DNA of 64,000 nt from a virus. Shown piece by piece: positions 18,135 to 64,000 of this stretch. Made by a program: the position numbers and the translations under genes. Numbering within the stretch: position 1 is the first letter of the stretch; each line of letters begins with the position of its first letter. The DNA lies in the IMG/VR virus record IMGVR_UViG_3300025137_005088, positions 3,066-67,065 of that record; one strand, 5' to 3'. Below the pieces are notes generated by a model. The model had not been told where the DNA came from and did not search any database. It worked only from the letters and a program-made list of their open reading frames with translations.

Positions 18135-19138
18135 AATAGTTTCTCAAATTGATCCTTCGGTAATGTTGTTAACCTGATAGCTGTACTACTATATTCAGGT
18201 TGCTTACCATACAGTATCTTTTGAGAATCTAATCTATTGATTATATCTTCTGTTGGTTCAAATACAACATGATTAATAGTTGGCTCGCTATATATTTTAC
18301 AATTACTAAAATATTTATGTGCGAACTCAATACCTTCTCTGTTGCGTTGCAAACTCTTATCTACTATATAATGATGTTTATGTAAGTACTCAGCTAATCT
18401 AAGCGTTATACTACTAACACCCATTATGGGTCTAATCTTTGTTATTTGTTCTATAGTATTTTTATGACCTTGAAGTATACCTAATCTAGCACCCGCAAGT
18501 CCCCAACTTTTACTGTAGCTAAATGCCAACAGACAGTTTTCGTATTTGCACAGATCAAAATAACTTTCTGTACAAAAGTGTCTATATGTGTTATCAATAA
18601 GCACAGTCATATTTGGATATGCTCCGCAAATATAATCTATAAATTTTGCACTGTATACTTTACCACTTGGATTATTTGGACTACAAATATAAAATACATT
18701 AGGTCTATGTTTTTCGATAGCTTCTAATATGTCATCTTCATTTTCACTGCATTCAAAAATATTACTTGTAAGATCTACTGCATTAGTCATAGCACCTCTG
18801 TACGTGGGTGTAATAGTTAAAAACTTGCTAGTTTCATCTAGTGTAGCTTCAAATGTTAATCGTATAGCTTCGTCACATCCACAAGTAATTAATATGTTAT
18901 CTAATGTAGTGTTGTAATAATCTGCAAACATTTCATAATAACGATAGTAATCTTCATACTTCATTGAGCTAGACAAATCTAAAAAATGTTTTATAGCTTT
19001 TTGTATATGACCACACAATACTTCGTCTTGATTTTCGTTTCTATCTAAATTAATATACCCAGCTTCAATTTTTTCTACTCTGTTTACTAATCCGCTCCAA
19101 TGTGGTCTATTAAGTTTTTTAATACTATCTCTAATCAT
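18113..19138 (-). CDS. PLP-dependent aminotransferase class I/II (HisC/CobD-like)
   Basis: GCDEAI, CSPNNPSG, IDNTY, SYSKSWGLAGARLG; start moved to ATG 19138 (track gives 19213). Confidence 0.88.
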   Translation of the reverse strand: MIRDSIKKLNRPHWSGLVNRVEKIEAGYINLDRNENQDEVLCGHIQKAIKHFLDLSSSMKYEDYYRYYEMFADYYNTTLDNILITCGCDEAIRLTFEATLDETSKFLTITPTYRGAMTNAVDLTSNIFECSENEDDILEAIEKHRPNVFYICSPNNPSGKVYSAKFIDYICGAYPNMTVLIDNTYRHFCTESYFDLCKYENCLLAFSYSKSWGLAGARLGILQGHKNTIEQITKIRPIMGVSSITLRLAEYLHKHHYIVDKSLQRNREGIEFAHKYFSNCKIYSEPTINHVVFEPTEDIINRLDSQKILYGKQPEYSSTAIRLTTLPKDQFEKLLCLNTYN

Positions 19139-20522: not shown

Positions 20523-21126
20523 CTTGAGACATTATAAAATCTTGTTTTCTAAAAACTAAATCAACTTGATGTAAGGCACCATGTTCGTAATCCATGTTTA
20601 CAATATCCCACAGTTTAAATCCGATGTGTTCAATATCAGATATAAGCTCACCCATATATGGTAGTTGTGCTTCTACTATCATTAAATCAAACTGACAACA
20701 GGTAGCAACACCACCTCGTATTATGTCCAGTTCGTATCCGTCAACATCAATTTTAACCAGACTGTTCCCGCCACGCCATCTAGGAGTTATATCTAAACTA
20801 TCCAGTGTTGTTATTTTACTTGTATACCCAAAGGCTTTACCTTCATGTACTAAATTTAAATCTATATTTTCTTTTATTTGATTTCCTAGTGCTACATTTA
20901 TAAGTTCGTAGCTGTATTTTTTATAGTTTTCGTGTATCTCATCATTATGATTTACGTCAGGTTCGATTAATACATGATGTGCTTTTGGAAAACTAAATTG
21001 TAACCAAGGAGTGCCTGTGTGTACTCCAATGTCTAGTATATATTTTATGTCATACCCGCTTTGTTTTAAAAATTGTAAGCTATCTTTTATTCTGGGAATA
21101 CGATGTTTAATCATTGCCAACCTCAT
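20461..21126 (-). CDS. FkbM-family methyltransferase
   Basis: ILDIGVHTG, LIEP, NVALG, VKIDVDGYE, QVDLVF. Confidence 0.88.
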   Translation of the reverse strand: MRLAMIKHRIPRIKDSLQFLKQSGYDIKYILDIGVHTGTPWLQFSFPKAHHVLIEPDVNHNDEIHENYKKYSYELINVALGNQIKENIDLNLVHEGKAFGYTSKITTLDSLDITPRWRGGNSLVKIDVDGYELDIIRGGVATCCQFDLMIVEAQLPYMGELISDIEHIGFKLWDIVNMDYEHGALHQVDLVFRKQDFIMSQVGEYPDYDFFRQGSEYHESN

Positions 21127-25688: not shown

Positions 25689-26691
25689 CTACTGTTTTCC
25701 CCTCAGTAAGTTTATAACCAATTGCCTGATTAAATTCTGGATCTGGTACTACGTCAAAACTTCCAACTTTCAGCATTCCCCAAGTTAGCATATCAAATCT
25801 ATTTCGAGTATCAGTCTTTTTAATCTTATAACCGCCCCAGTAGTTGTCTAAACTGTGATTTAAATGATCTAATGCTTCTTCATGTGTTCTCCGATCACCA
25901 CACCAAAACATTAGTTCACCTGCATAACAACATTGTTGTTCTACTAAATCAAAACTACTACTTGTCATTTTTATTGCATTGTACTCATTATCGTCATACA
26001 TTTCAATCATTATGTTATCGTAGTCATACCCAATTTGTGTAGGATATAAAAATATTTCACCTGGATTTCGTTCCATACTAAAACGATCAACCCATTCATC
26101 ATCTAAGTAATGAAACTGATGATTAAACTTTAATCCAAAGTTTTGTAAGTTTGTTTCCTGTGTAACAGTTGTGGTTACATCTCTTAATACTTTAAGTGAA
26201 TGAAAAATATGAACTAACTTTTCAATATGTCTTGTGATTCCTTGGTCATTAAGTACGCGATAGATTAGTATACATTGTGTTTGCATTGGATTAATAATGT
26301 CTTGATGTACTATTAGTCCCCATTGGTGATCTATTTTTCCTGCATCCATTTTATACCAATCTTGTAATGGGACGATCTTTTCTAATGTATTTTCAATTTG
26401 AGTAAATGCCTGTCCATTACTCATTACTGTATGTCCTAAAATTTCACTCAATGGAATGTTAGCAGTGTTATATCCATCGGCAATTTTATTCCATTCTTCT
26501 ATTTTATCATTTAGAATAGGAACGATTTGATATAATCTTTCTAATGCGTGGTGTTTATGATACACATTCCAATGCGTTACTTCCGGAACTCCAACAATAT
26601 CCAACCCTAAATTAAACCAGTCTGCAAATATATCGCATTTGATTAGTTGGTTTTCTTTTTTATCGTTTTGCAATTTAAATTCAAACTTCAT
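25675..26691 (-). CDS. hypothetical protein
   Basis: Long ORF; start moved to ATG 26691 (MKFEFK) to avoid a 128-nt overlap; no family recognised. Confidence 0.7.
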   Translation of the reverse strand: MKFEFKLQNDKKENQLIKCDIFADWFNLGLDIVGVPEVTHWNVYHKHHALERLYQIVPILNDKIEEWNKIADGYNTANIPLSEILGHTVMSNGQAFTQIENTLEKIVPLQDWYKMDAGKIDHQWGLIVHQDIINPMQTQCILIYRVLNDQGITRHIEKLVHIFHSLKVLRDVTTTVTQETNLQNFGLKFNHQFHYLDDEWVDRFSMERNPGEIFLYPTQIGYDYDNIMIEMYDDNEYNAIKMTSSSFDLVEQQCCYAGELMFWCGDRRTHEEALDHLNHSLDNYWGGYKIKKTDTRNRFDMLTWGMLKVGSFDVVPDPEFNQAIGYKLTEGKTVDAVG

Positions 26692-59241: not shown

Positions 59242-60258
59242 ATGACATTTTTTAATCGTGCGGCTTGCTTTACGGACATACACTTTGGAAACAAAAACAA
59301 TAGCAAGCAACACAATCGTGATTGTGAAGAGTTTGTTGATTGGTTTGTAGCACAAGCAAAAGAACAAAACTGTGAAACGTGCATTTTCTTAGGAGACTGG
59401 CACCATCATAGATCCAGTGTAAACGTTAGTACTCTCAACTATAGCGTAGAAAACGTTGCCAAACTAAGCAAAGCATTTAAACAAGTGTATATGATTACTG
59501 GTAATCATGATCTCTATTATAGAGAAAAACGTGACTACAACAGTTTACCATATGCAACACTATTCGACAATGTACAGTTAGTTAATGACCAAACATTAGT
59601 GCAAGATGAAGTTGCACTTGTTCCTTGGTTAGTAGGCGATGAGTGGAAACAGATCAGTAAGACCAAATGTAGATACATGTTTGGACACTTTGAACTTCCT
59701 TACTTTAAAATGAATGCTATGGTAGAGATGCCTGATCATGGAGGTCTTAATGCAGAATATTTGCAAGGACCCGAGTATGTGTTTACAGGACATTTTCACA
59801 AGAGACAAAACAAAGGCAATGTACACTACTTAGGATCACCTTTTCCACATAACTATGCAGATGCATGGGATGACGAACGTGGTATGATGGTACTAGAGTG
59901 GGGTGGCAAACCCGAGTATATAGACTGGGAAGGCCCACGTTACAGAACTGTTGCATTGAGTAGACTTATAGACGAACCAGATTTAATCCTCAATAGTAAA
60001 ACTTATTGTAGAGCTACATTAGATATCAATATCAGTTATGAAGAAGCTAGCTTTATTAAAGAAACTTTCAGTGAGCAGTATGGTGTAAGAGAGATAACAC
60101 TTATGCCTAGCAAAAAAGAAGAACATGCACAGGACTGGAGAGTTGTAGAAGATATAGAAGTTGAAAATGTTGACCAGATAGTGTATAATAGTTTAAATGC
60201 TGTGGATAGTGACATGATTGACAAGAAACTGCTAGTGGATATATATAACAACCTATGA
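59242..60258 (+). CDS. recombination endonuclease subunit, gp47/Mre11/SbcD-like
   Basis: DIHFG, LGDW, GNHD, GHFE, GHFH metallophosphoesterase motifs. Confidence 0.95.
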   Translation: MTFFNRAACFTDIHFGNKNNSKQHNRDCEEFVDWFVAQAKEQNCETCIFLGDWHHHRSSVNVSTLNYSVENVAKLSKAFKQVYMITGNHDLYYREKRDYNSLPYATLFDNVQLVNDQTLVQDEVALVPWLVGDEWKQISKTKCRYMFGHFELPYFKMNAMVEMPDHGGLNAEYLQGPEYVFTGHFHKRQNKGNVHYLGSPFPHNYADAWDDERGMMVLEWGGKPEYIDWEGPRYRTVALSRLIDEPDLILNSKTYCRATLDINISYEEASFIKETFSEQYGVREITLMPSKKEEHAQDWRVVEDIEVENVDQIVYNSLNAVDSDMIDKKLLVDIYNNL

Positions 60259-62024
60259 TTACTATTGAAAACCTAACCGTAAAGAACTTTATGAGTGTCG
60301 GCAATGTTACACAAGCTGTACGTTTCACTGAAAACGGACTGACGCTTGTACTGGGTAACAATGTTGATCTAGGAGGCGACGGCAGTAGAAATGGTACTGG
60401 TAAGACCACTATCATTAATGCACTCAGCTATGTAATATATGGCAATGCACTAACTAATATTAGAAAAGATAATTTAATTAACAAAACTAACGGCAAAAAT
60501 ATGATGGTTACGTTAGATTTTGAGATTGCTGGTAAAAAATACCGTATCGAACGTGGCAGAAAGCCACAAGTGCTTAAATACTATGTCGACGAATTGAATG
60601 TCGAAGAAGATGAAGCACAGGGTGAAAACAGACAGACTCAAGTACAAATAGAAAAACTATTTGGAATGAGCCATGATATGTTTAAACACATTGTTGCACT
60701 TAACACATATACAGAACCTTTTCTCAGTATGCGAGCAAACGATCAGCGAGCAATTATTGAGCAGTTACTAGGTATAACAATGCTTAGTGAAAAATCGGAG
60801 GTTCTTAAAGAACAACAAAGGCTAACGAGAGATGCAATCAAAGAAGAAGAGTATCGAATTAACGCAGTTGAAGAAGCAAATTCCAGAATTGAGAAAAGTA
60901 TCGGTGATTTGGAACGCAGGCAGAAAATTTGGCGGGATCAGCAAAAAATTACTGTCGAAAGTATCCAACAGCAAATCAACACACTAGAAAAAATAGATAT
61001 CCAAATAGAACTTAGTAATCATACATTACTAAGTGATTACCTAGAAAAGAAAAAGCTGAAAGACGAAGCAGAACGTTGGCTATCTAGTATTCAAACTGAT
61101 AATATTAAACAAGAAAAACTTATTACAAAGTTAGATAGAGAACTTGCACTACTAGAAGATCACAAATGTCACAGTTGTGGACAAGATATCCACGATACTA
61201 AACAAGAAGAAATACTGTCTAGTAAGCAAGAGCAACGCACAGAAGCTAACTCACATATACTGTCTAATAAAACACAAGAAGCTGAGTGGATAGAAGCTGT
61301 GTCATCACTAGGTGAACTAGGGCATATGCCAGTCACACATTACACTACAGAAACAGAAGCACATAAGCACAATAATCAACTTGAAACATTGCGTAGTCAA
61401 GTAACTAATAAACAAAGCGAAAGTGACACTTATCAAGAGCAAATAGAAAGTCTGCGTAGTACTGGTGTGCAAACTGTAACTTGGGATAATATGAATGAAC
61501 TTAATAATATAAAAGATCATCAGGACTTTTTGTACAAACTGTTAACAAACAAAGACAGTTTTATCCGCAAACGTATTATTGAACAGAACTTGCAATACTT
61601 GAATAGTAGACTTGCATATTACTTGACAAAACTTGGACTACCACATGAAGTACAGTTCCAGCCTGACCTAACAGTTGAGATAACAGAACTGGGCAGAGAT
61701 TTAGACTTTGATAATCTAAGTAGAGGCGAACGTAATAGACTTATACTAGGATTGAGTTGGAGTTTTAGAGATGTATTTGAAAGTATGAATACACCTATTA
61801 ACTTTATGGCCATTGACGAACTTATTGACAGTGGCATGGACACCAACGGTGTTGATGCAAGTTTAAGTGTACTCAAAAAGATAGAACGTGAACGTGGTAA
61901 AAACATCTTCTTAATCTCACACAGAGATGAACTGGTAGGTCGTGTTAATACTATACTACAAGTTATTAAAGAAGGCGGCTTTACTACATTCAGCACAGAT
62001 ACAGAGTTTATAGATGCAAAATAA
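60255..62024 (+). CDS. recombination ATPase subunit, gp46/Rad50/SbcC-like
   Basis: KNFMSVG, NGTGKTT, coiled coil with CHSC zinc hook, LSRGE, IDELID, ISH. Confidence 0.95.
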   Translation: MITIENLTVKNFMSVGNVTQAVRFTENGLTLVLGNNVDLGGDGSRNGTGKTTIINALSYVIYGNALTNIRKDNLINKTNGKNMMVTLDFEIAGKKYRIERGRKPQVLKYYVDELNVEEDEAQGENRQTQVQIEKLFGMSHDMFKHIVALNTYTEPFLSMRANDQRAIIEQLLGITMLSEKSEVLKEQQRLTRDAIKEEEYRINAVEEANSRIEKSIGDLERRQKIWRDQQKITVESIQQQINTLEKIDIQIELSNHTLLSDYLEKKKLKDEAERWLSSIQTDNIKQEKLITKLDRELALLEDHKCHSCGQDIHDTKQEEILSSKQEQRTEANSHILSNKTQEAEWIEAVSSLGELGHMPVTHYTTETEAHKHNNQLETLRSQVTNKQSESDTYQEQIESLRSTGVQTVTWDNMNELNNIKDHQDFLYKLLTNKDSFIRKRIIEQNLQYLNSRLAYYLTKLGLPHEVQFQPDLTVEITELGRDLDFDNLSRGERNRLILGLSWSFRDVFESMNTPINFMAIDELIDSGMDTNGVDASLSVLKKIERERGKNIFLISHRDELVGRVNTILQVIKEGGFTTFSTDTEFIDAK

Positions 62025-62256
62025 TTGGAAGCAAGAAATATTTTGGGAACATTACTGTGAAAAACAACAAGGTGTTATGGGATTTCCAAAAGGTACAGAG
62101 TGCGATTGGTGTGGGGAAACAGAAGCAACAGGAAATAAGATTCAAACTAAAAAAACTGTTGGTGAAAAACTTTATGGGTATCACCCACAAGAATTATTAA
62201 CAAAGAAAATTTTACCCATTGATGTATTTTATAAACTTTTTGGACAAAAACTATGA
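62014..62256 (+). CDS. small putative zinc-binding protein
   Basis: HYC...CDWCG. Confidence 0.65.
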   Translation: MQNNWKQEIFWEHYCEKQQGVMGFPKGTECDWCGETEATGNKIQTKKTVGEKLYGYHPQELLTKKILPIDVFYKLFGQKL

Positions 62257-62576
62257 GAGATCACGAAGACGATGACTACACAATACACATAGATAGCTTT
62301 AATAATAAAGGTCAAAAAGGAGACGACGACTTCGAAACTTGGTTAGAAACAGAAGCTCCTCTTGTTTCTCCTTCTACTATCACAGCAATTGATAACTCAT
62401 ACACAGTTGATTTATCACAACAGGCTACATGCACAAGTACAATGATATCATCAAATGTTGGAACTATTACTATAACTGGACTAGATCATCATGCATTGAG
62501 TAAGCAAAAAAAATTACCTATTGATATATTATACAAATGGTATCCTAGACAAATGAAAGAGCAAAGCGATGACTAA
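62253..62576 (+). CDS. hypothetical protein (107 aa)
   Basis: ATGA-coupled; acidic N-terminus and Thr/Ser-rich middle. Confidence 0.65.
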   Translation: MRDHEDDDYTIHIDSFNNKGQKGDDDFETWLETEAPLVSPSTITAIDNSYTVDLSQQATCTSTMISSNVGTITITGLDHHALSKQKKLPIDILYKWYPRQMKEQSDD

Positions 62577-63258
62577 TACTTTTATGTTTGATGTTGACGG
62601 AACTCTAACTGACCCTAGAAGACAAATTAATGTAGAATTCGAATACTTTATGAAGCAATTTGTAAACAAGCATAAATGTATGATTGTTACCGGAAGCGAT
62701 AGACCTAAAACTATAGAGCAAATCGGACTAGACTTAACTGTTAGATTTAATAGAGTTTATCACTGTAGTGGAAATCATGTTTTTGAAGATGTAAACGAAG
62801 TTAGACGTAGTGACTGGTCATTATCCAATGATCAAATACAATTCTTAACTGAGTACTTGCACAACGTAAAGTATCCAGAGATGACTGGTAATCACATTGA
62901 ACAACGCACAGGCACAGCTAACTTTAGTTTAGTTGGCAGGAACGCCGATTGGGAACAACGTGAAAGATATGCCCAATGGGACAAATCAAACAAAGGCAGA
63001 GAAACTGTAGCTATGTACTACAATGAACAATTTAGCGACAGTATTGCACAAGTTGCTGGACAAACAAGCATAGACATATTTAAAATAGGCTGTGACAAGA
63101 GTCAAGCTATAAGAGAACAAAAGGGAAAAACAATTTATTTCGGAGACCATTGTCACCCAGGAGGCAACGACTATACAGCCGCCATGGCAAGTACCACATA
63201 TTATAACATAGAAAATGGATATAAAGAAACTTGGGAAATCTTAAAAAAGATGTACTAA
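62569..63258 (+). CDS. HAD-IIB phosphomannomutase (eukaryotic PMM-type)
   Basis: FDVDGTLT, VTGSD, IEQRTG..NFS.VGR, GQTSIDIF, YFGD...GGNDY. Confidence 0.88.
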   Translation: MTNTFMFDVDGTLTDPRRQINVEFEYFMKQFVNKHKCMIVTGSDRPKTIEQIGLDLTVRFNRVYHCSGNHVFEDVNEVRRSDWSLSNDQIQFLTEYLHNVKYPEMTGNHIEQRTGTANFSLVGRNADWEQRERYAQWDKSNKGRETVAMYYNEQFSDSIAQVAGQTSIDIFKIGCDKSQAIREQKGKTIYFGDHCHPGGNDYTAAMASTTYYNIENGYKETWEILKKMY

Positions 63259-63263
63259 ATCGG

Positions 63264-63293
63264 TTGACAAAGGGCTCAGAAGATATATATAAT
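63264..63293 (+). promoter_or_regulatory. sigma70-like promoter
   Basis: TTGACA-N18-TATAAT upstream of the GIY-YIG gene. Confidence 0.65.
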
Positions 63294-63310
63294 TGTTGCA
63301 GTAGACAAAC

Positions 63311-63739
63311 ATGCAATGGACTTATCAAGGCAAACAAGTAGAAGAAATTAGTGAGGAATACATAGGATTTGTATATCTTATTACCAACCTCACAAACGGC
63401 AAAAAATATATTGGCAAAAAACTAGCACAATTTAAAGTAACTAAAAAACCCCTTAAAGGCAAGAAAAACAAAAGACGTTCAACTAAAGAAAGTGACTGGA
63501 GAACCTATTGGGGAAGCAGTGACAAGCTAAATGCAGATGTTGAACATTTAGGCCCAGAAAACTTTACAAGAGAAATACTATTCTACTGCACTAGCAGAGG
63601 CGAACTAAGTTATTTAGAAGCTAAAGAACAGTTTGATCGTAAAGTACTAGAAACTGAAGAATACTACAACGGCATTATAAACGTAAGAGTTGGCAGTTCT
63701 AAGGCACTTATTGAATCACTAAACAGACACCAGTCGTAA
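63311..63739 (+). CDS. stand-alone GIY-YIG nuclease (142 aa)
   Basis: GFVYLITNLTNGKKYIGKK, YWGSS, SYLEAKEQ (Glu), YYNG (Asn). Confidence 0.9.
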   Translation: MQWTYQGKQVEEISEEYIGFVYLITNLTNGKKYIGKKLAQFKVTKKPLKGKKNKRRSTKESDWRTYWGSSDKLNADVEHLGPENFTREILFYCTSRGELSYLEAKEQFDRKVLETEEYYNGIINVRVGSSKALIESLNRHQS

Positions 63740-64000
63740 TATACCCTCTCTATTAGAGCATTGAGGAGTCGCCATTGAATTGGTTAGACAACGGATCTTG
63801 CTGAGGGACACAAACCAAAAGAGTGGGCTCTACTGTGCCATTGTAACCCACGGATAGCTCAAAAGTCGTCGTTATGGCTTAGAGTGTTTCTGCGTTTTTA
63901 GCAGTATGTAAAGGGGTAAAGCAAAACCGCCTCTGCCTAGCAATAGGTTTTACTATAACGGAGCGATTGTAAGCGGGGTAATGACCTTTAGCTTTTTTTT
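63740..64000 (+). ncRNA. candidate structured non-coding RNA
   Basis: No ORF in the track; about 44% GC by hand count, above the AT-rich background; several helices including a GCAA-tetraloop hairpin (63935-63948). Confidence 0.55.
63971..64000 (+). terminator. intrinsic terminator
   Basis: AAGC-GGGGT-AATG-ACCTT-TA-GCTT stem followed by a T run to the window end. Confidence 0.6.

What the first reader, a model, noticed from the sequence alone, without database searches (positions are those of the whole stretch)
63264..64000. Self-contained unit: promoter, minimal GIY-YIG nuclease, ~260-nt structured RNA, terminator
Seen: in a window whose other intergenic gaps are under ~100 nt, a 261-nt ORF-free, GC-enriched tract starts right at the nuclease stop. 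Helices: TTGGTT 63780-85/AACCAA 63813-18; GTGGG 63823-27/CCCAC 63847-51; GCTC..AAGTCGT-CGTT-ATGGCTT..GAGT 63857-85; CTGC/GCAG 63890-904; AGGGGT 63912-17/ACCGCCT 63926-32; GCCTA-GCAA-TAGGT (GNRA loop) 63935-48; then a terminator. The 142-aa nuclease has a Lys/Arg-rich insertion (KVTKKPLKGKKNKRRS) and no visible C-terminal DNA-binding domain. Known: OMEGA/HEARO-type systems pair compact nucleases with adjacent structured RNAs, but those nucleases are RuvC/HNH. Inference: a possible nuclease-RNA ribonucleoprotein (guide, inhibitor or origin-associated RNA). The mundane alternative is an endonuclease II (denA)-like host-DNA nuclease next to an unrelated RNA or origin.
Basis: partly seen in the sequence, partly recalled or inferred. 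Interest (0 to 1): 0.85.

Follow-up and report, generated by a model that had tools for sequence, protein, structure and literature searches.

The report
New large structured phage RNA
The gene-free stretch after a small nuclease gene encodes a real, intricately folded RNA of about 335 bases, conserved in many uncultured marine phages and matching no catalogued RNA family, but it does not appear to depend on the nuclease.

Summary
The tract 63740-64000 is the first ~260 nt of a ~335-nt RNA cut by the contig end. Its single-sequence folding energy is unremarkable (z +0.76), but comparison proves structure. In 39 relatives 96.5% of 55 proposed pairs form, against 35-47% when partners are slid, and 23 pairs change on both sides. 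There are two tertiary helices: a loop-loop contact and a 7-9 bp pseudoknot seen with at least 10 different complementary sequence pairs. No Rfam 15 family, tRNA or tmRNA matches. About 150 IMG/VR stretches carry it, always on the strand of the upstream genes. TTGGTT/AACCAA does not, and the 'terminator' is an internal hairpin. The nuclease is an intact SegE/I-TevI-type GIY-YIG catalytic domain. The pairing with the RNA is mostly synteny. The RNA also follows a PD-(D/E)XK nuclease (4 loci) or unrelated genes. Thirty-four nuclease loci and five 80-169 kb records lack the RNA. An unexpected feature is two exposed 8-11 nt motifs, one in the hairpin loop at 63975-85 and one in the 3' tail. They change in parallel and stay identical across 9 sequence variants, which points to one shared trans partner. 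Function is unknown. A nuclease-RNA particle is not supported.

The parts
63264..63293 (+). Sigma-70-type promoter, TTGACA-18 nt-TATAAT
   Evidence: 12 of 12 consensus matches. Kept at 10/12 or better at a fixed -47 from the start codon in 14 of 68 nuclease loci, all in the close clade. It is not present in the other RNA-bearing clades L012 and L018.
63311..63739 (+). 142-aa stand-alone GIY-YIG nuclease (SegE/I-TevI-type catalytic domain only)
   Evidence: Pfam PF19835, E 4e-36, residues 3-123. phrog_447, E 1e-39. AF2 pLDDT 92.3. Best PDB fold is the I-TevI catalytic domain 1mk0, prob 0.98. G19, V21, Y22, Y33, G35, R87, E103 and N120 are invariant in 20 homologues. One copy in the 67-kb record.
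63744..63807 (+). RNA 5' domain: H1 CCCTC 63744-48 / GAGGG 63803-07; H1b GCA 63758-60 / TGC 63799-801; variable hairpin H2 63768-63789
   Evidence: H1 has 3 of 5 pairs with changes on both sides and 95.9% of cells paired. H1b has 1 compensatory change. H2 was read by eye: different self-complementary sequences, often with GNRA loops.
63808..63822 (+). Conserved A-rich single-stranded linker ACACAAACCAAAAGA
Evidence: Nearly invariant in 39 sequences.
63823..63851 (+). H3: GTGGG/CCCAC plus TAC/GTA, with conserved loop TGTGCCATT
   Evidence: 8 pairs, 100% of cells paired, 5 pairs with changes on both sides, for example TGGG/CCCA to CAGG/CCTG. Kept in the distant clade.
63853..63890 (+). H4: closing GA 63853-54 / TC 63889-90; GCTC 63857-60 / GAGT 63882-85; AAGTC 63863-67 / GGCTT 63876-80; loop GTCGTTAT 63868-75
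   Evidence: 8 of 11 pairs change on both sides. In the broad set, 10 of 11 do.
63891..63903 (+). H5: TGC/GCA hairpin whose loop (63895-97) contacts the H6 loop (63924-26)
   Evidence: Loop-loop pairs are 100% paired. The types are UA 34 / CG 5 and UA 21 / GC 17 / GU 1.
63912..63932 (+). H6: AGGGG / CC-G-CCT, the family's invariant signature AAGGGGT-N8-9-ACCGCCTC
   Evidence: Invariant in 65 distinct sequences. The signature retrieved 62 CM-confirmed loci among 93 new pattern matches.
63935..63948 (+). H7: GCCTA-GCAA-TAGGT hairpin, with a GNRA loop in many members
   Evidence: 3 of 5 pairs change on both sides. In the broad set, all 5 do.
63955..63961 (+). 3' strand of pseudoknot PK2 (ATAACGG), pairing with the H4 loop at 63869-63875
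   Evidence: 7 pairs, 97.4% paired. With the loop-loop contact counted in, the figure is 98.2% against 33-62% when slid. Pair types are CG 16 / UA 14 / AU 2 at one position. Entirely different complementary pairs occur in L097 (8 bp) and in at least 8 variants in the distant clade.
63971..63994 (+). H8 hairpin (AAGC..GG / CC..GCTT) with motif M GGGGTAATGAC (63975-85) exposed in its loop
   Evidence: The stem differs and stays complementary between sub-clades; this was read by eye. M co-varies by identity with a second copy, M', in the 3' tail.
63993..64000 (+). Internal T-run. The window and contig end here, while the RNA continues about 75 nt: H9 hairpin, GAC, then M' AGGGTAATAAC
   Evidence: The window ends at the contig end. 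The full length is seen in L006 3430-3740 and 38 other relatives. H9 has 12 pairs, 100% paired, with G-U pairs that fit only the + strand.

Best explanation
The tract is the 5' three quarters of a previously uncatalogued, compactly folded non-coding RNA of about 335 nt, read from the + strand.

Shown:
- It is the last element of the rightward (early/recombination) gene block of a lineage of uncultured marine T4-like, probably jumbo, phages.
- It sits just before the convergent baseplate-hub genes.
- Its fold has nine helices tied together by a loop-loop contact (L5-L6) and a long-range pseudoknot (H4 loop with the H7-H8 linker).
- The fold displays two copies of one 8-11 nt single-stranded motif, M in the H8 loop and M' in the 3' tail. 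The copies are kept identical while their sequence drifts between lineages.

Inferred:
- In this phage it is made as the 3' part of a transcript that starts at the consensus promoter in front of the GIY-YIG gene.
- The RNA acts in trans as a scaffold. It offers two equivalent sites to one partner: a dimeric or repeated RNA-binding protein, or two copies of a complementary nucleic acid.
- It works independently of the GIY-YIG nuclease. The nuclease more likely belongs with gp46/gp47 as a small structure-specific or host-DNA nuclease, replaceable by a PD-(D/E)XK enzyme.
For: Structure in the close clade:
- 55 pairs on 39 sequences are 96.5% paired, against 35-47% when slid. 23 pairs change on both sides, against 3-6 when slid. 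0 of 500 shuffles reach this.
- The two tertiary helices (10 pairs) are 98.2% paired, against 33-62% when slid.

Structure in the broad family:
- 65 sequences are 93% paired, against 39-51% when slid. 25 of 32 pairs change on both sides. That alignment was fitted to the model.
- PK2 is re-invented with at least 8 further complementary sequence pairs in the distant clade and with an 8-bp pair in L097.

Strand and expression:
- G-U pairs, for example in H9 and H7, would be C-A mismatches on the other strand.
- Metatranscriptome contigs bridge the ORF into the RNA: X1 63365-63809, and X3 63389-64000 plus 36 nt beyond.

Not a known family:
- 0 Rfam hits at gathering score on the window.
- Only chance-level rows at E<=10 or E<=1 on the tract, on six full-length loci and on two distant members.
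- No tRNA or tmRNA.

Selection: RNA core nucleotide identity to six relatives is 72-97%. The nuclease ORF is 73-90%, the PMM-like gene 66-75% and gp46 74-81%.

Independence from the nuclease:
- The RNA lies behind PDDEXK_15 (4 loci) or behind other genes.
- The nuclease lacks the RNA in 34 loci with at least 1 kb downstream.
- Five nuclease-bearing records of 80-169 kb have no hit.
- Neither Melnitz nor L016 has it.

Twin motif:
- Each variable column of M has the same position of M' as its best mutual-information partner: 0.96, 0.82, 1.0 and 0.62.
- 9 different 7-mer cores are each shared by both copies, in 45 of 45 sequences.
- No complement was found in the loci: 21 hits against 25 expected, with no positional cluster. 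None was found in the window.
Against: - No function has been tested, so 'trans-acting scaffold' is inference.
- The RNA abuts the nuclease stop codon in most loci. H1 starts 5 nt after the stop, so translation and folding could be coupled.
- In the close clade 90 of 96 pattern matches have the nuclease upstream. The other 6 are 4 chance matches and 2 contigs too short upstream. A functional tie in that clade cannot be excluded.
- Two unrelated nucleases occupy the slot in front of the RNA, which may not be coincidence.
- Contigs from RNA libraries cannot show ends, strand or level, and may contain DNA.
- The single-sequence fold is no better than shuffles.
- Loci come from fragmentary contigs, so 'no RNA' means none within the DNA held.
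- The model E-values are rough.
Confidence: 0.55

Rival explanations
1. Nuclease-RNA ribonucleoprotein. The RNA binds the minimal GIY-YIG enzyme (or, in other phages, the PD-(D/E)XK enzyme). It supplies specificity, inhibition or activation, with M/M' as lineage-variable twin 'guide' segments.
For: - The RNA directly abuts the nuclease stop codon in most loci.
- The nuclease has no DNA-binding domain.
- Two unrelated small nucleases occupy the same slot just upstream of the RNA.
- M/M' are exposed, variable between lineages and have no internal partner.
- Both genes sit behind one strong promoter in the window's clade.
Against: - The RNA occurs with MazG-like or nucleosidase-like genes upstream and no nuclease hit (4 loci). 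In 8 loci it lies about 1 kb beyond the nuclease.
- The nuclease, at 70-89% identity, is common without any RNA hit.
- The M variant does not track the nuclease type: AGATGAA occurs with both GIY-YIG and PDDEXK.
- Stand-alone GIY-YIG enzymes of this size are widespread in cultured cyanophages. Their flanks were not searched for the RNA. Blastn of two distant members found nothing in the phage collection.
- Two searches of the paper library found no RNA-guided GIY-YIG enzyme (121 papers holding at least 3 of 4 terms, 12 listed, 5 papers holding all terms, 4 listed).
Confidence: 0.1
2. Cis-acting 3' element of the operon. The fold protects the early transcript from 3' exonucleases, or it insulates convergent early and late transcription. 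H8 plus the T-run would act as a leaky or regulated terminator.
For: - The RNA is always the last element of a same-strand gene block.
- In T4-like contexts it faces the 3' ends of the convergent hub genes.
- A hairpin followed by a T-run lies inside it.
- One RNA-library contig reads through the T-run.
Against: - A 335-nt fold with two tertiary helices and invariant loops is far more than end protection needs.
- The T-run is lost in several sub-clades while H9 and M' stay conserved.
- The terminator scan finds nothing.
- The identity-covarying twin motif has no role in this model.
Confidence: 0.15
3. Homing-endonuclease neighbourhood. The small nucleases are (ex-)mobile free-standing endonucleases that settled next to a highly conserved RNA gene because that gene supplies their cleavage site, as recalled for T4 SegB beside tRNA genes. 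The RNA has its own, separate function.
For: - The domain is the SegE/I-TevI type.
- A different nuclease family occupies the same slot in 4 loci.
- The RNA is a sequence-conserved island where many contigs break.
Against: - The nuclease is near-universal and vertically conserved in the clade. It is 73-98% identical while its neighbours drop to 30-76%.
- There is a single copy per record.
- It lacks the DNA-binding domain that Seg enzymes carry. Their length of about 200 aa is recalled, not tested.
Confidence: 0.1
4. Self-processing RNA. The conserved core is a ribozyme, or the substrate of a specific RNase, that cuts at the two identical sites M and M' and releases the ~70-nt H9 segment or a defined 3' end.
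For: - Two identical exposed motifs flank a conserved hairpin.
- The core is invariant and pseudoknotted, like catalytic RNAs.
Against: - There is no match to any self-cleaving ribozyme family in Rfam.
- No internal guide complementary to M was found.
- The contig data give no evidence of ends.
Confidence: 0.07

Closest known systems
Large 'ornate' phage-associated non-coding RNAs of unknown function (GOLLD, ROOL, HEARO as Rfam families)
   Same: A long, multi-helix, pseudoknotted RNA found by covariation, encoded in phage DNA, with no coding role.
   Different: No sequence or structure match to any of the 4227 Rfam 15 models. It is shorter, at about 335 nt. It has a different gene context, at the end of the gp47-gp46 block. 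It also carries the identity-covarying twin motif.
OMEGA guide RNAs (TnpB, IscB, IsrB omega-RNAs)
   Same: A structured RNA next to a compact nuclease gene, here on its 3' side as recalled for TnpB. It has short lineage-variable exposed segments.
   Different: - The nuclease is GIY-YIG, not RuvC/HNH.
- RNA and nuclease are separable in both directions.
- The variable segment is duplicated inside the RNA rather than single at one end.
- The locus is syntenic, not transposon-like.
T4 Seg-type free-standing GIY-YIG homing endonucleases and the I-TevI catalytic domain
   Same: Pfam SegE_GIY-YIG domain. Best solved-structure match is the I-TevI catalytic domain 1mk0. Conserved GIY...YIG...R...E...N positions.
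   Different: It has a catalytic domain only (142 aa) and no linker or DNA-binding domain. It is conserved and single-copy in its clade rather than sporadic. It is not inside an intron.
T4 translational operators (gene 43 hairpin bound by DNA polymerase; RegA sites)
   Same: A short A/U-rich motif shown in a hairpin loop. The T4 gene 43 leader read contains TAATAAC in its hairpin loop region. The same 7-mer is the core of M' in the window's clade, and M differs from it at one base.
   Different: - The location is the 3' end of an operon, not a ribosome-binding site.
- The distant clade has other cores.
- No RegA gene is in the 67-kb fragment (uninformative).
- A 7-mer match can be chance.
- The roles of gp43 and RegA as RNA binders are recalled, not tested.
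phi29 packaging RNA and type III antitoxin RNAs (recalled comparators)
   Same: Phage-encoded structured RNAs that work through loop-loop contacts (pRNA), or through repeated identical motifs recognised by one protein (ToxI-type).
   Different: There is no Rfam match. The repeats here are 2 copies of 8-11 nt about 70 nt apart, not tandem ~36-nt units. No endoribonuclease toxin gene lies alongside, and the phage is T4-like rather than phi29-like.

Membership tests
Any Rfam 15 family | Covariance-model match at or near the gathering score | tested here: not met
   0 matches on the window at gathering score. Only snoRNA, CRISPR-repeat or sRNA rows at E 0.9-4.9, far below gathering score, on the tract, on 6 full-length loci and on 2 distant members.
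Group I intron carrying a homing endonuclease ORF | Interrupted host gene: exons on both sides, with ribozyme core flanking or following the ORF | tested here: not met
   The upstream PMM-like ORF is complete and ends with a stop at 63258. Only 52 nt, holding a promoter, precede the nuclease ORF. Downstream lie convergent genes. There is no Intron_gpI hit.
tmRNA / tRNA-like | ARAGORN or Rfam detection of a tRNA-like domain and tag frame | tested here: not met
   0 genes in the window and in 13 full-length loci. No tmRNA family in the Rfam searches.
OMEGA-type nuclease-guide RNA system | RuvC or HNH effector (TnpB, IscB or IsrB) | tested here: not met
   The only Pfam hit is SegE_GIY-YIG. The fold matches I-TevI.
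OMEGA-type nuclease-guide RNA system | Obligate linkage of the RNA with its nuclease gene | tested here: not met
   The RNA occurs without GIY-YIG in 8 loci with enough upstream DNA. The nuclease occurs without the RNA in 34 loci, 5 long records, Melnitz and L016.
OMEGA-type nuclease-guide RNA system | A variable, unpaired guide segment that matches target DNA | tested here: inconclusive
   Variable exposed motifs exist (M, M'), but as two identical copies. No matching target was found in the loci or the window. Host genomes were not searched.
Seg-type free-standing homing endonuclease | N-terminal GIY-YIG catalytic domain | tested here: met
   PF19835, E 4e-36, full profile coverage. Invariant motif residues.
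Seg-type free-standing homing endonuclease | C-terminal DNA-binding region and sporadic, mobile distribution | tested here: not met
   The protein ends 19 residues after the domain, and the model shows one terminal helix. It is present in 90 of 96 pattern loci in one syntenic slot. Single copy.
   The scan finds none in 63100-64000. An imperfect hairpin plus T-run exists, but conserved structure continues beyond it, and one RNA-library contig reads through. True 3' ends cannot be seen in contigs.
T4 gene 43-type translational operator | Hairpin overlapping the ribosome-binding site of the regulated gene, bound by its own product | tested here: not met
   M lies at the 3' end of the operon with no gene downstream on that strand. 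The only likeness is a 7-mer, and only in one clade. Binding is not testable here.

The most novel reading that the evidence does not exclude
The RNA is the specificity module of a new kind of RNA-directed system. Its two identical, lineage-variable, exposed 8-11 nt motifs would act as twin guides that base-pair with a repeated or two-stranded trans target in host or rival-phage nucleic acid. The small domain-less nucleases encoded directly upstream (GIY-YIG, or PD-(D/E)XK in other lineages) would be interchangeable effectors recruited by the scaffold.
Probability: 0.07. Interest if true: 0.95.

Novelty: categorically new. Interest (0 to 1): 0.72.

Why it matters
Large RNAs with tertiary folds are rare, and almost all known ones do something fundamental: catalysis, ligand sensing, or scaffolding of ribonucleoproteins. 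This RNA has nine helices and two tertiary helices. It is conserved at least as well as the neighbouring replication and recombination genes across about 150 contigs of an uncultured, probably jumbo, marine phage lineage. It is present in metatranscriptome libraries and absent from Rfam.

Its twin motifs stay identical while drifting in sequence. That is an unusual evolutionary signature, and it gives a direct experimental handle on the partner. Mutate one or both copies, swap variants between lineages, or pull down what binds.

The work also corrects a tempting inference. A compact nuclease next to a structured RNA is not by itself evidence of an RNA-guided nuclease.

Tried and rejected
- Single-sequence folding gave no signal on either strand: z +0.76 and -0.24.
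- Rfam gave nothing real at gathering or permissive thresholds on the window, on full-length copies and on distant members.
- ARAGORN found no tRNA or tmRNA.
- The group I intron reading was rejected for lack of exons and of a model match.
- RNAalifold's long-range ACC/GGT pairing is invariant, and L097's GGC would break it. I did not adopt it.
- Cultured phages:
  - Blastn of the unit hit only the nuclease ORF of 4 Melnitz records.
  - Two distant RNA members gave no match.
  - Covariance models found nothing significant in the whole records of Melnitz, PA5oct or Phosso: E 0.08, 0.98 and 0.34.
- Search for a partner of M/M': no complement inside the RNA, in the flanking loci or in the window.
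- RegA family search in the 67-kb record: nothing, and no control genome matched either, so this is uninformative.
- Read laying showed no cover over most of 62000-63140 in four RNA runs. The runs were chosen with 63000-64000 and are contigs, so this says nothing about relative expression.
- The search of earlier findings was not open.
- One paper search was wasted on loose terms.
- Searches for an RNA-guided GIY-YIG enzyme found none.
- The catalogue of 8495 IMG/VR candidate RNAs (PMC10690425; I read passages found by term search) does not mention GIY-YIG in its main text. Its supplementary tables are closed, so short pieces of this RNA may already be listed there.
- Bacterial genomes and the metagenome collection were not scanned.
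Full report
**Where we are.** The window is the last 64 kb of a 67,065-nt IMG/VR virus record and ends exactly at the contig end. CheckV rates the record 19% complete, which suggests a genome of several hundred kb. The right-hand end reads, on the + strand: a gp47-like gene, a gp46-like gene (60255-62024), two small ORFs, a PMM-family HAD protein (62569-63258; Pfam PMM E 2e-24), then the unit in question. The nearest cultured gp46 proteins are only 44-48% identical: Sinorhizobium phage Phosso, Pseudomonas PA5oct-like jumbo phages and Agrobacterium Atu_ph07. The nuclease is 78% identical to a Methylophilales phage Melnitz protein and 34-41% identical to cyanophage proteins that are mislabelled 'NAD synthetase'.

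**The observation.**
- Promoter: 12/12 match at 63264-63293.
- ORF: 63311-63739.
- After the ORF comes a 261-nt stretch with no + strand ORF of 30 aa or more. Its GC is 0.42-0.47, against 0.354 for the window.
- The claim that all other gaps are short did not hold in a crude gene call. Five other stretches over 120 nt lack an ORF of 70 aa or more, and three of them are 584-996 nt and AT-rich.
- On its own the tract folds no better than shuffled sequence, with z +0.76 on + and -0.24 on -. Rfam and ARAGORN find nothing.

**Comparative evidence for structure.**
- A protein-seeded scan of IMG/VR found 576 relatives of the nuclease among 598 pattern matches; the best 80 were kept. Of those 80, 13 carried a blastn-detectable homologue of the tract directly after the stop codon. 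Their alignment showed obvious compensatory changes.
- A signature pattern then fetched 96 stretches. 92 are true homologues and 4 are unrelated chance matches.
- I aligned 39 representatives that are under 96% identical (A1).
- A hand-built structure of 55 pairs forms in 96.5% of cells, against 35-47% when the 3' partners are slid by 1-3 columns. 23 pairs change on both sides, against 3-6 when slid. 0 of 500 column shuffles reach the observed values.
TTGGTT/AACCAA is not: 41.8% paired and no covariation.
- Two tertiary helices emerged.
  - The H5 loop pairs with the H6 loop, with pair types UA 34 / CG 5 and UA 21 / GC 17 / GU 1.
  - The 8-nt H4 loop pairs with the linker after H7 (PK2). This gives 7 pairs, 97.4% paired, with CG 16 / UA 14 / AU 2 at one position.
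  - PK2 is rebuilt from wholly different sequences in L097 (an 8-bp pair). In the distant clade it occurs with at least 8 further complementary pairs.
- G-U pairs fit only the + strand.

**The RNA is longer than the window.** In every relative with more sequence, conservation continues past the T-run. It runs through a 12-bp hairpin (H9, 100% paired) and a conserved tail ending in AGGGTAATAAC, about 75 nt beyond window position 64000. The terminator scan does not call it, and the T-run is degenerate in some sub-clades. One contig from an RNA library runs 36 nt past the window end.

**Family size and limits.**
- On 66 aligned hits (65 distinct), 93% of cells pair, against 39-51% when slid. 25 of 32 pairs change on both sides. 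H6 is invariant (this alignment was fitted to the model).
- The distant clade has a larger 5' domain.
- No Rfam family matches these members either.
- No cultured phage has the RNA by blastn or by model search of Melnitz, PA5oct and Phosso.

**Is it tied to the nuclease?**
- In the window's clade all 92 loci share one gene order: gp46 - small ORFs - PMM-like - nuclease - RNA - convergent 82-aa gene - baseplate-hub gene (phrog_150). The nuclease stays 73-98% identical there, while the PMM-like protein falls to 39-76% and the hub protein to 30-54%. Co-occurrence in this clade is therefore synteny.
- In the wider family I parsed 60 of the 62 hits, dropping two truncated ones.
  - 49 have the GIY-YIG gene upstream, at 48-80% identity. 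It is usually adjacent. In 8 loci a 323-356-aa ORF lies between them, and in 2 loci about 200 nt lie between them.
  - 4 loci have a 172-173-aa PDDEXK_15 protein in that slot instead (PF24608, E 3e-25).
  - 2 loci have a MazG-like ORF upstream and 2 have a nucleosidase-like ORF. Both labels are by eye.
  - 2 loci lack upstream DNA.
  - 1 hit lies inside a long ORF and is false.
- Conversely, a broader model (R2) hit only 8 of the 54 nuclease loci searched (56 sources, including 2 Melnitz loci). 34 loci with at least 1 kb of downstream DNA have none.
- Five nuclease-bearing records of 80-169 kb have none.
- The close relative L016 has the nuclease, a small ORF and a short leader element shared with L097, but no large RNA.
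- The consensus promoter is conserved only in the window's immediate clade, in 14 of 68 loci.

**The nuclease.**
- It is an intact catalytic domain and nothing more. PF19835 covers residues 3-123.
- The AlphaFold model has pLDDT 92.3. The best solved fold is the I-TevI catalytic domain (1mk0, probability 0.98, E 0.1).
- The motif residues are invariant in 20 homologues, and the Lys/Arg loop is family-wide.
- No solved structure matches by sequence.
- It sits after gp47/gp46 and can be replaced by a PD-(D/E)XK enzyme that PHROGs labels a resolvase. I infer that it serves recombination or DNA processing. This is inference, not a test.

**An unexplained signature.** The H8 loop (M, window 63975-85) and the 3' tail (M') carry the same 8-11 nt motif.
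- In 45 distinct distant-clade sequences, each variable position of M has the same position of M' as its best mutual-information partner: 0.96, 0.82, 1.0 and 0.62. No other strong partner exists.
- Nine different 7-mer cores occur, and each is shared by both copies. At least 7 of 9 positions are identical in 45 of 45 sequences.
- The window's clade shows the same behaviour: L175 and L097 change both copies alike.
- No complement is present in the RNA, the loci or the window.

Two sites that stay identical while drifting suggest one shared trans partner. The core in the window's clade shares a 7-mer with the loop region of the T4 gene 43 leader, as read. That may be chance, and the distant clade differs.

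**Expression.** 22 runs on record as RNA hold part of the stretch. In four runs laid, contigs cover the ORF and the RNA and bridge the stop codon. Contigs cannot give ends, strand or level, and they may include DNA.

**Verdict.** This is a real and apparently uncatalogued large structured RNA family. The RNP interpretation is unsupported and function is unknown. The best handle on function is the twin motif.

**Literature.** Two searches found no RNA-guided GIY-YIG enzyme. The IMG/VR catalogue PMC10690425 was checked through passages only, and its supplements could not be seen.

Noticed in passing
L227 7327-9315 (gp46 homologue): This gp46-like ORF is 662 aa, against 589-590 aa elsewhere. It has an inserted block near the N-terminal ATPase motif that looks like an intein by eye.
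   Followed up: no
L190, L210, L227, L271 (e.g. L227 9825-10343): A 172-173-aa PDDEXK_15 nuclease (PF24608; phrog_244, labelled 'RusA-like resolvase') replaces the GIY-YIG gene in the slot between gp46 and the RNA.
   Followed up: partly
Many loci (e.g. L005, L007, L008, L011, L118, L128, L137) and the window itself: Contigs very often end inside or just after the RNA. This fits assembly breaks at a sequence-conserved island shared by co-occurring strains.
   Followed up: no
L097 3110-3190 and L016 3685-3775: A ~95-nt leader element with covarying hairpins lies upstream of the L097-type RNA. It is also present in L016, where the large RNA is absent.
   Followed up: partly
window 18135-19130, 20523-21106, 25689-26680: Three AT-rich stretches (GC 0.31-0.33) of 584-996 nt hold only ORFs of 62 aa or less. 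They have no Rfam or tRNA hit.
   Followed up: no
L182 and L227, upstream of the RNA: Repeated CTTAGGCA-like words lie just upstream of the RNA in distant-clade members. They may be a phage-specific promoter or processing signal.
   Followed up: no
G000 and G001-G005: CheckV completeness of 19-46% for contigs of 67-169 kb implies genomes of roughly 350 kb, that is an uncultured marine jumbo-phage lineage.
   Followed up: no
Cyanophage records: Homologues of this GIY-YIG protein (phrog_447) are widely annotated as 'NAD synthetase'. This looks like a propagated mis-annotation.
   Followed up: no
L275 6911-7924 (Sinorhizobium phage Phosso): A 1-kb unannotated gap lies beside a Holliday-junction resolvase gene near gp46. 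It has no hit with the RNA model.
   Followed up: partly
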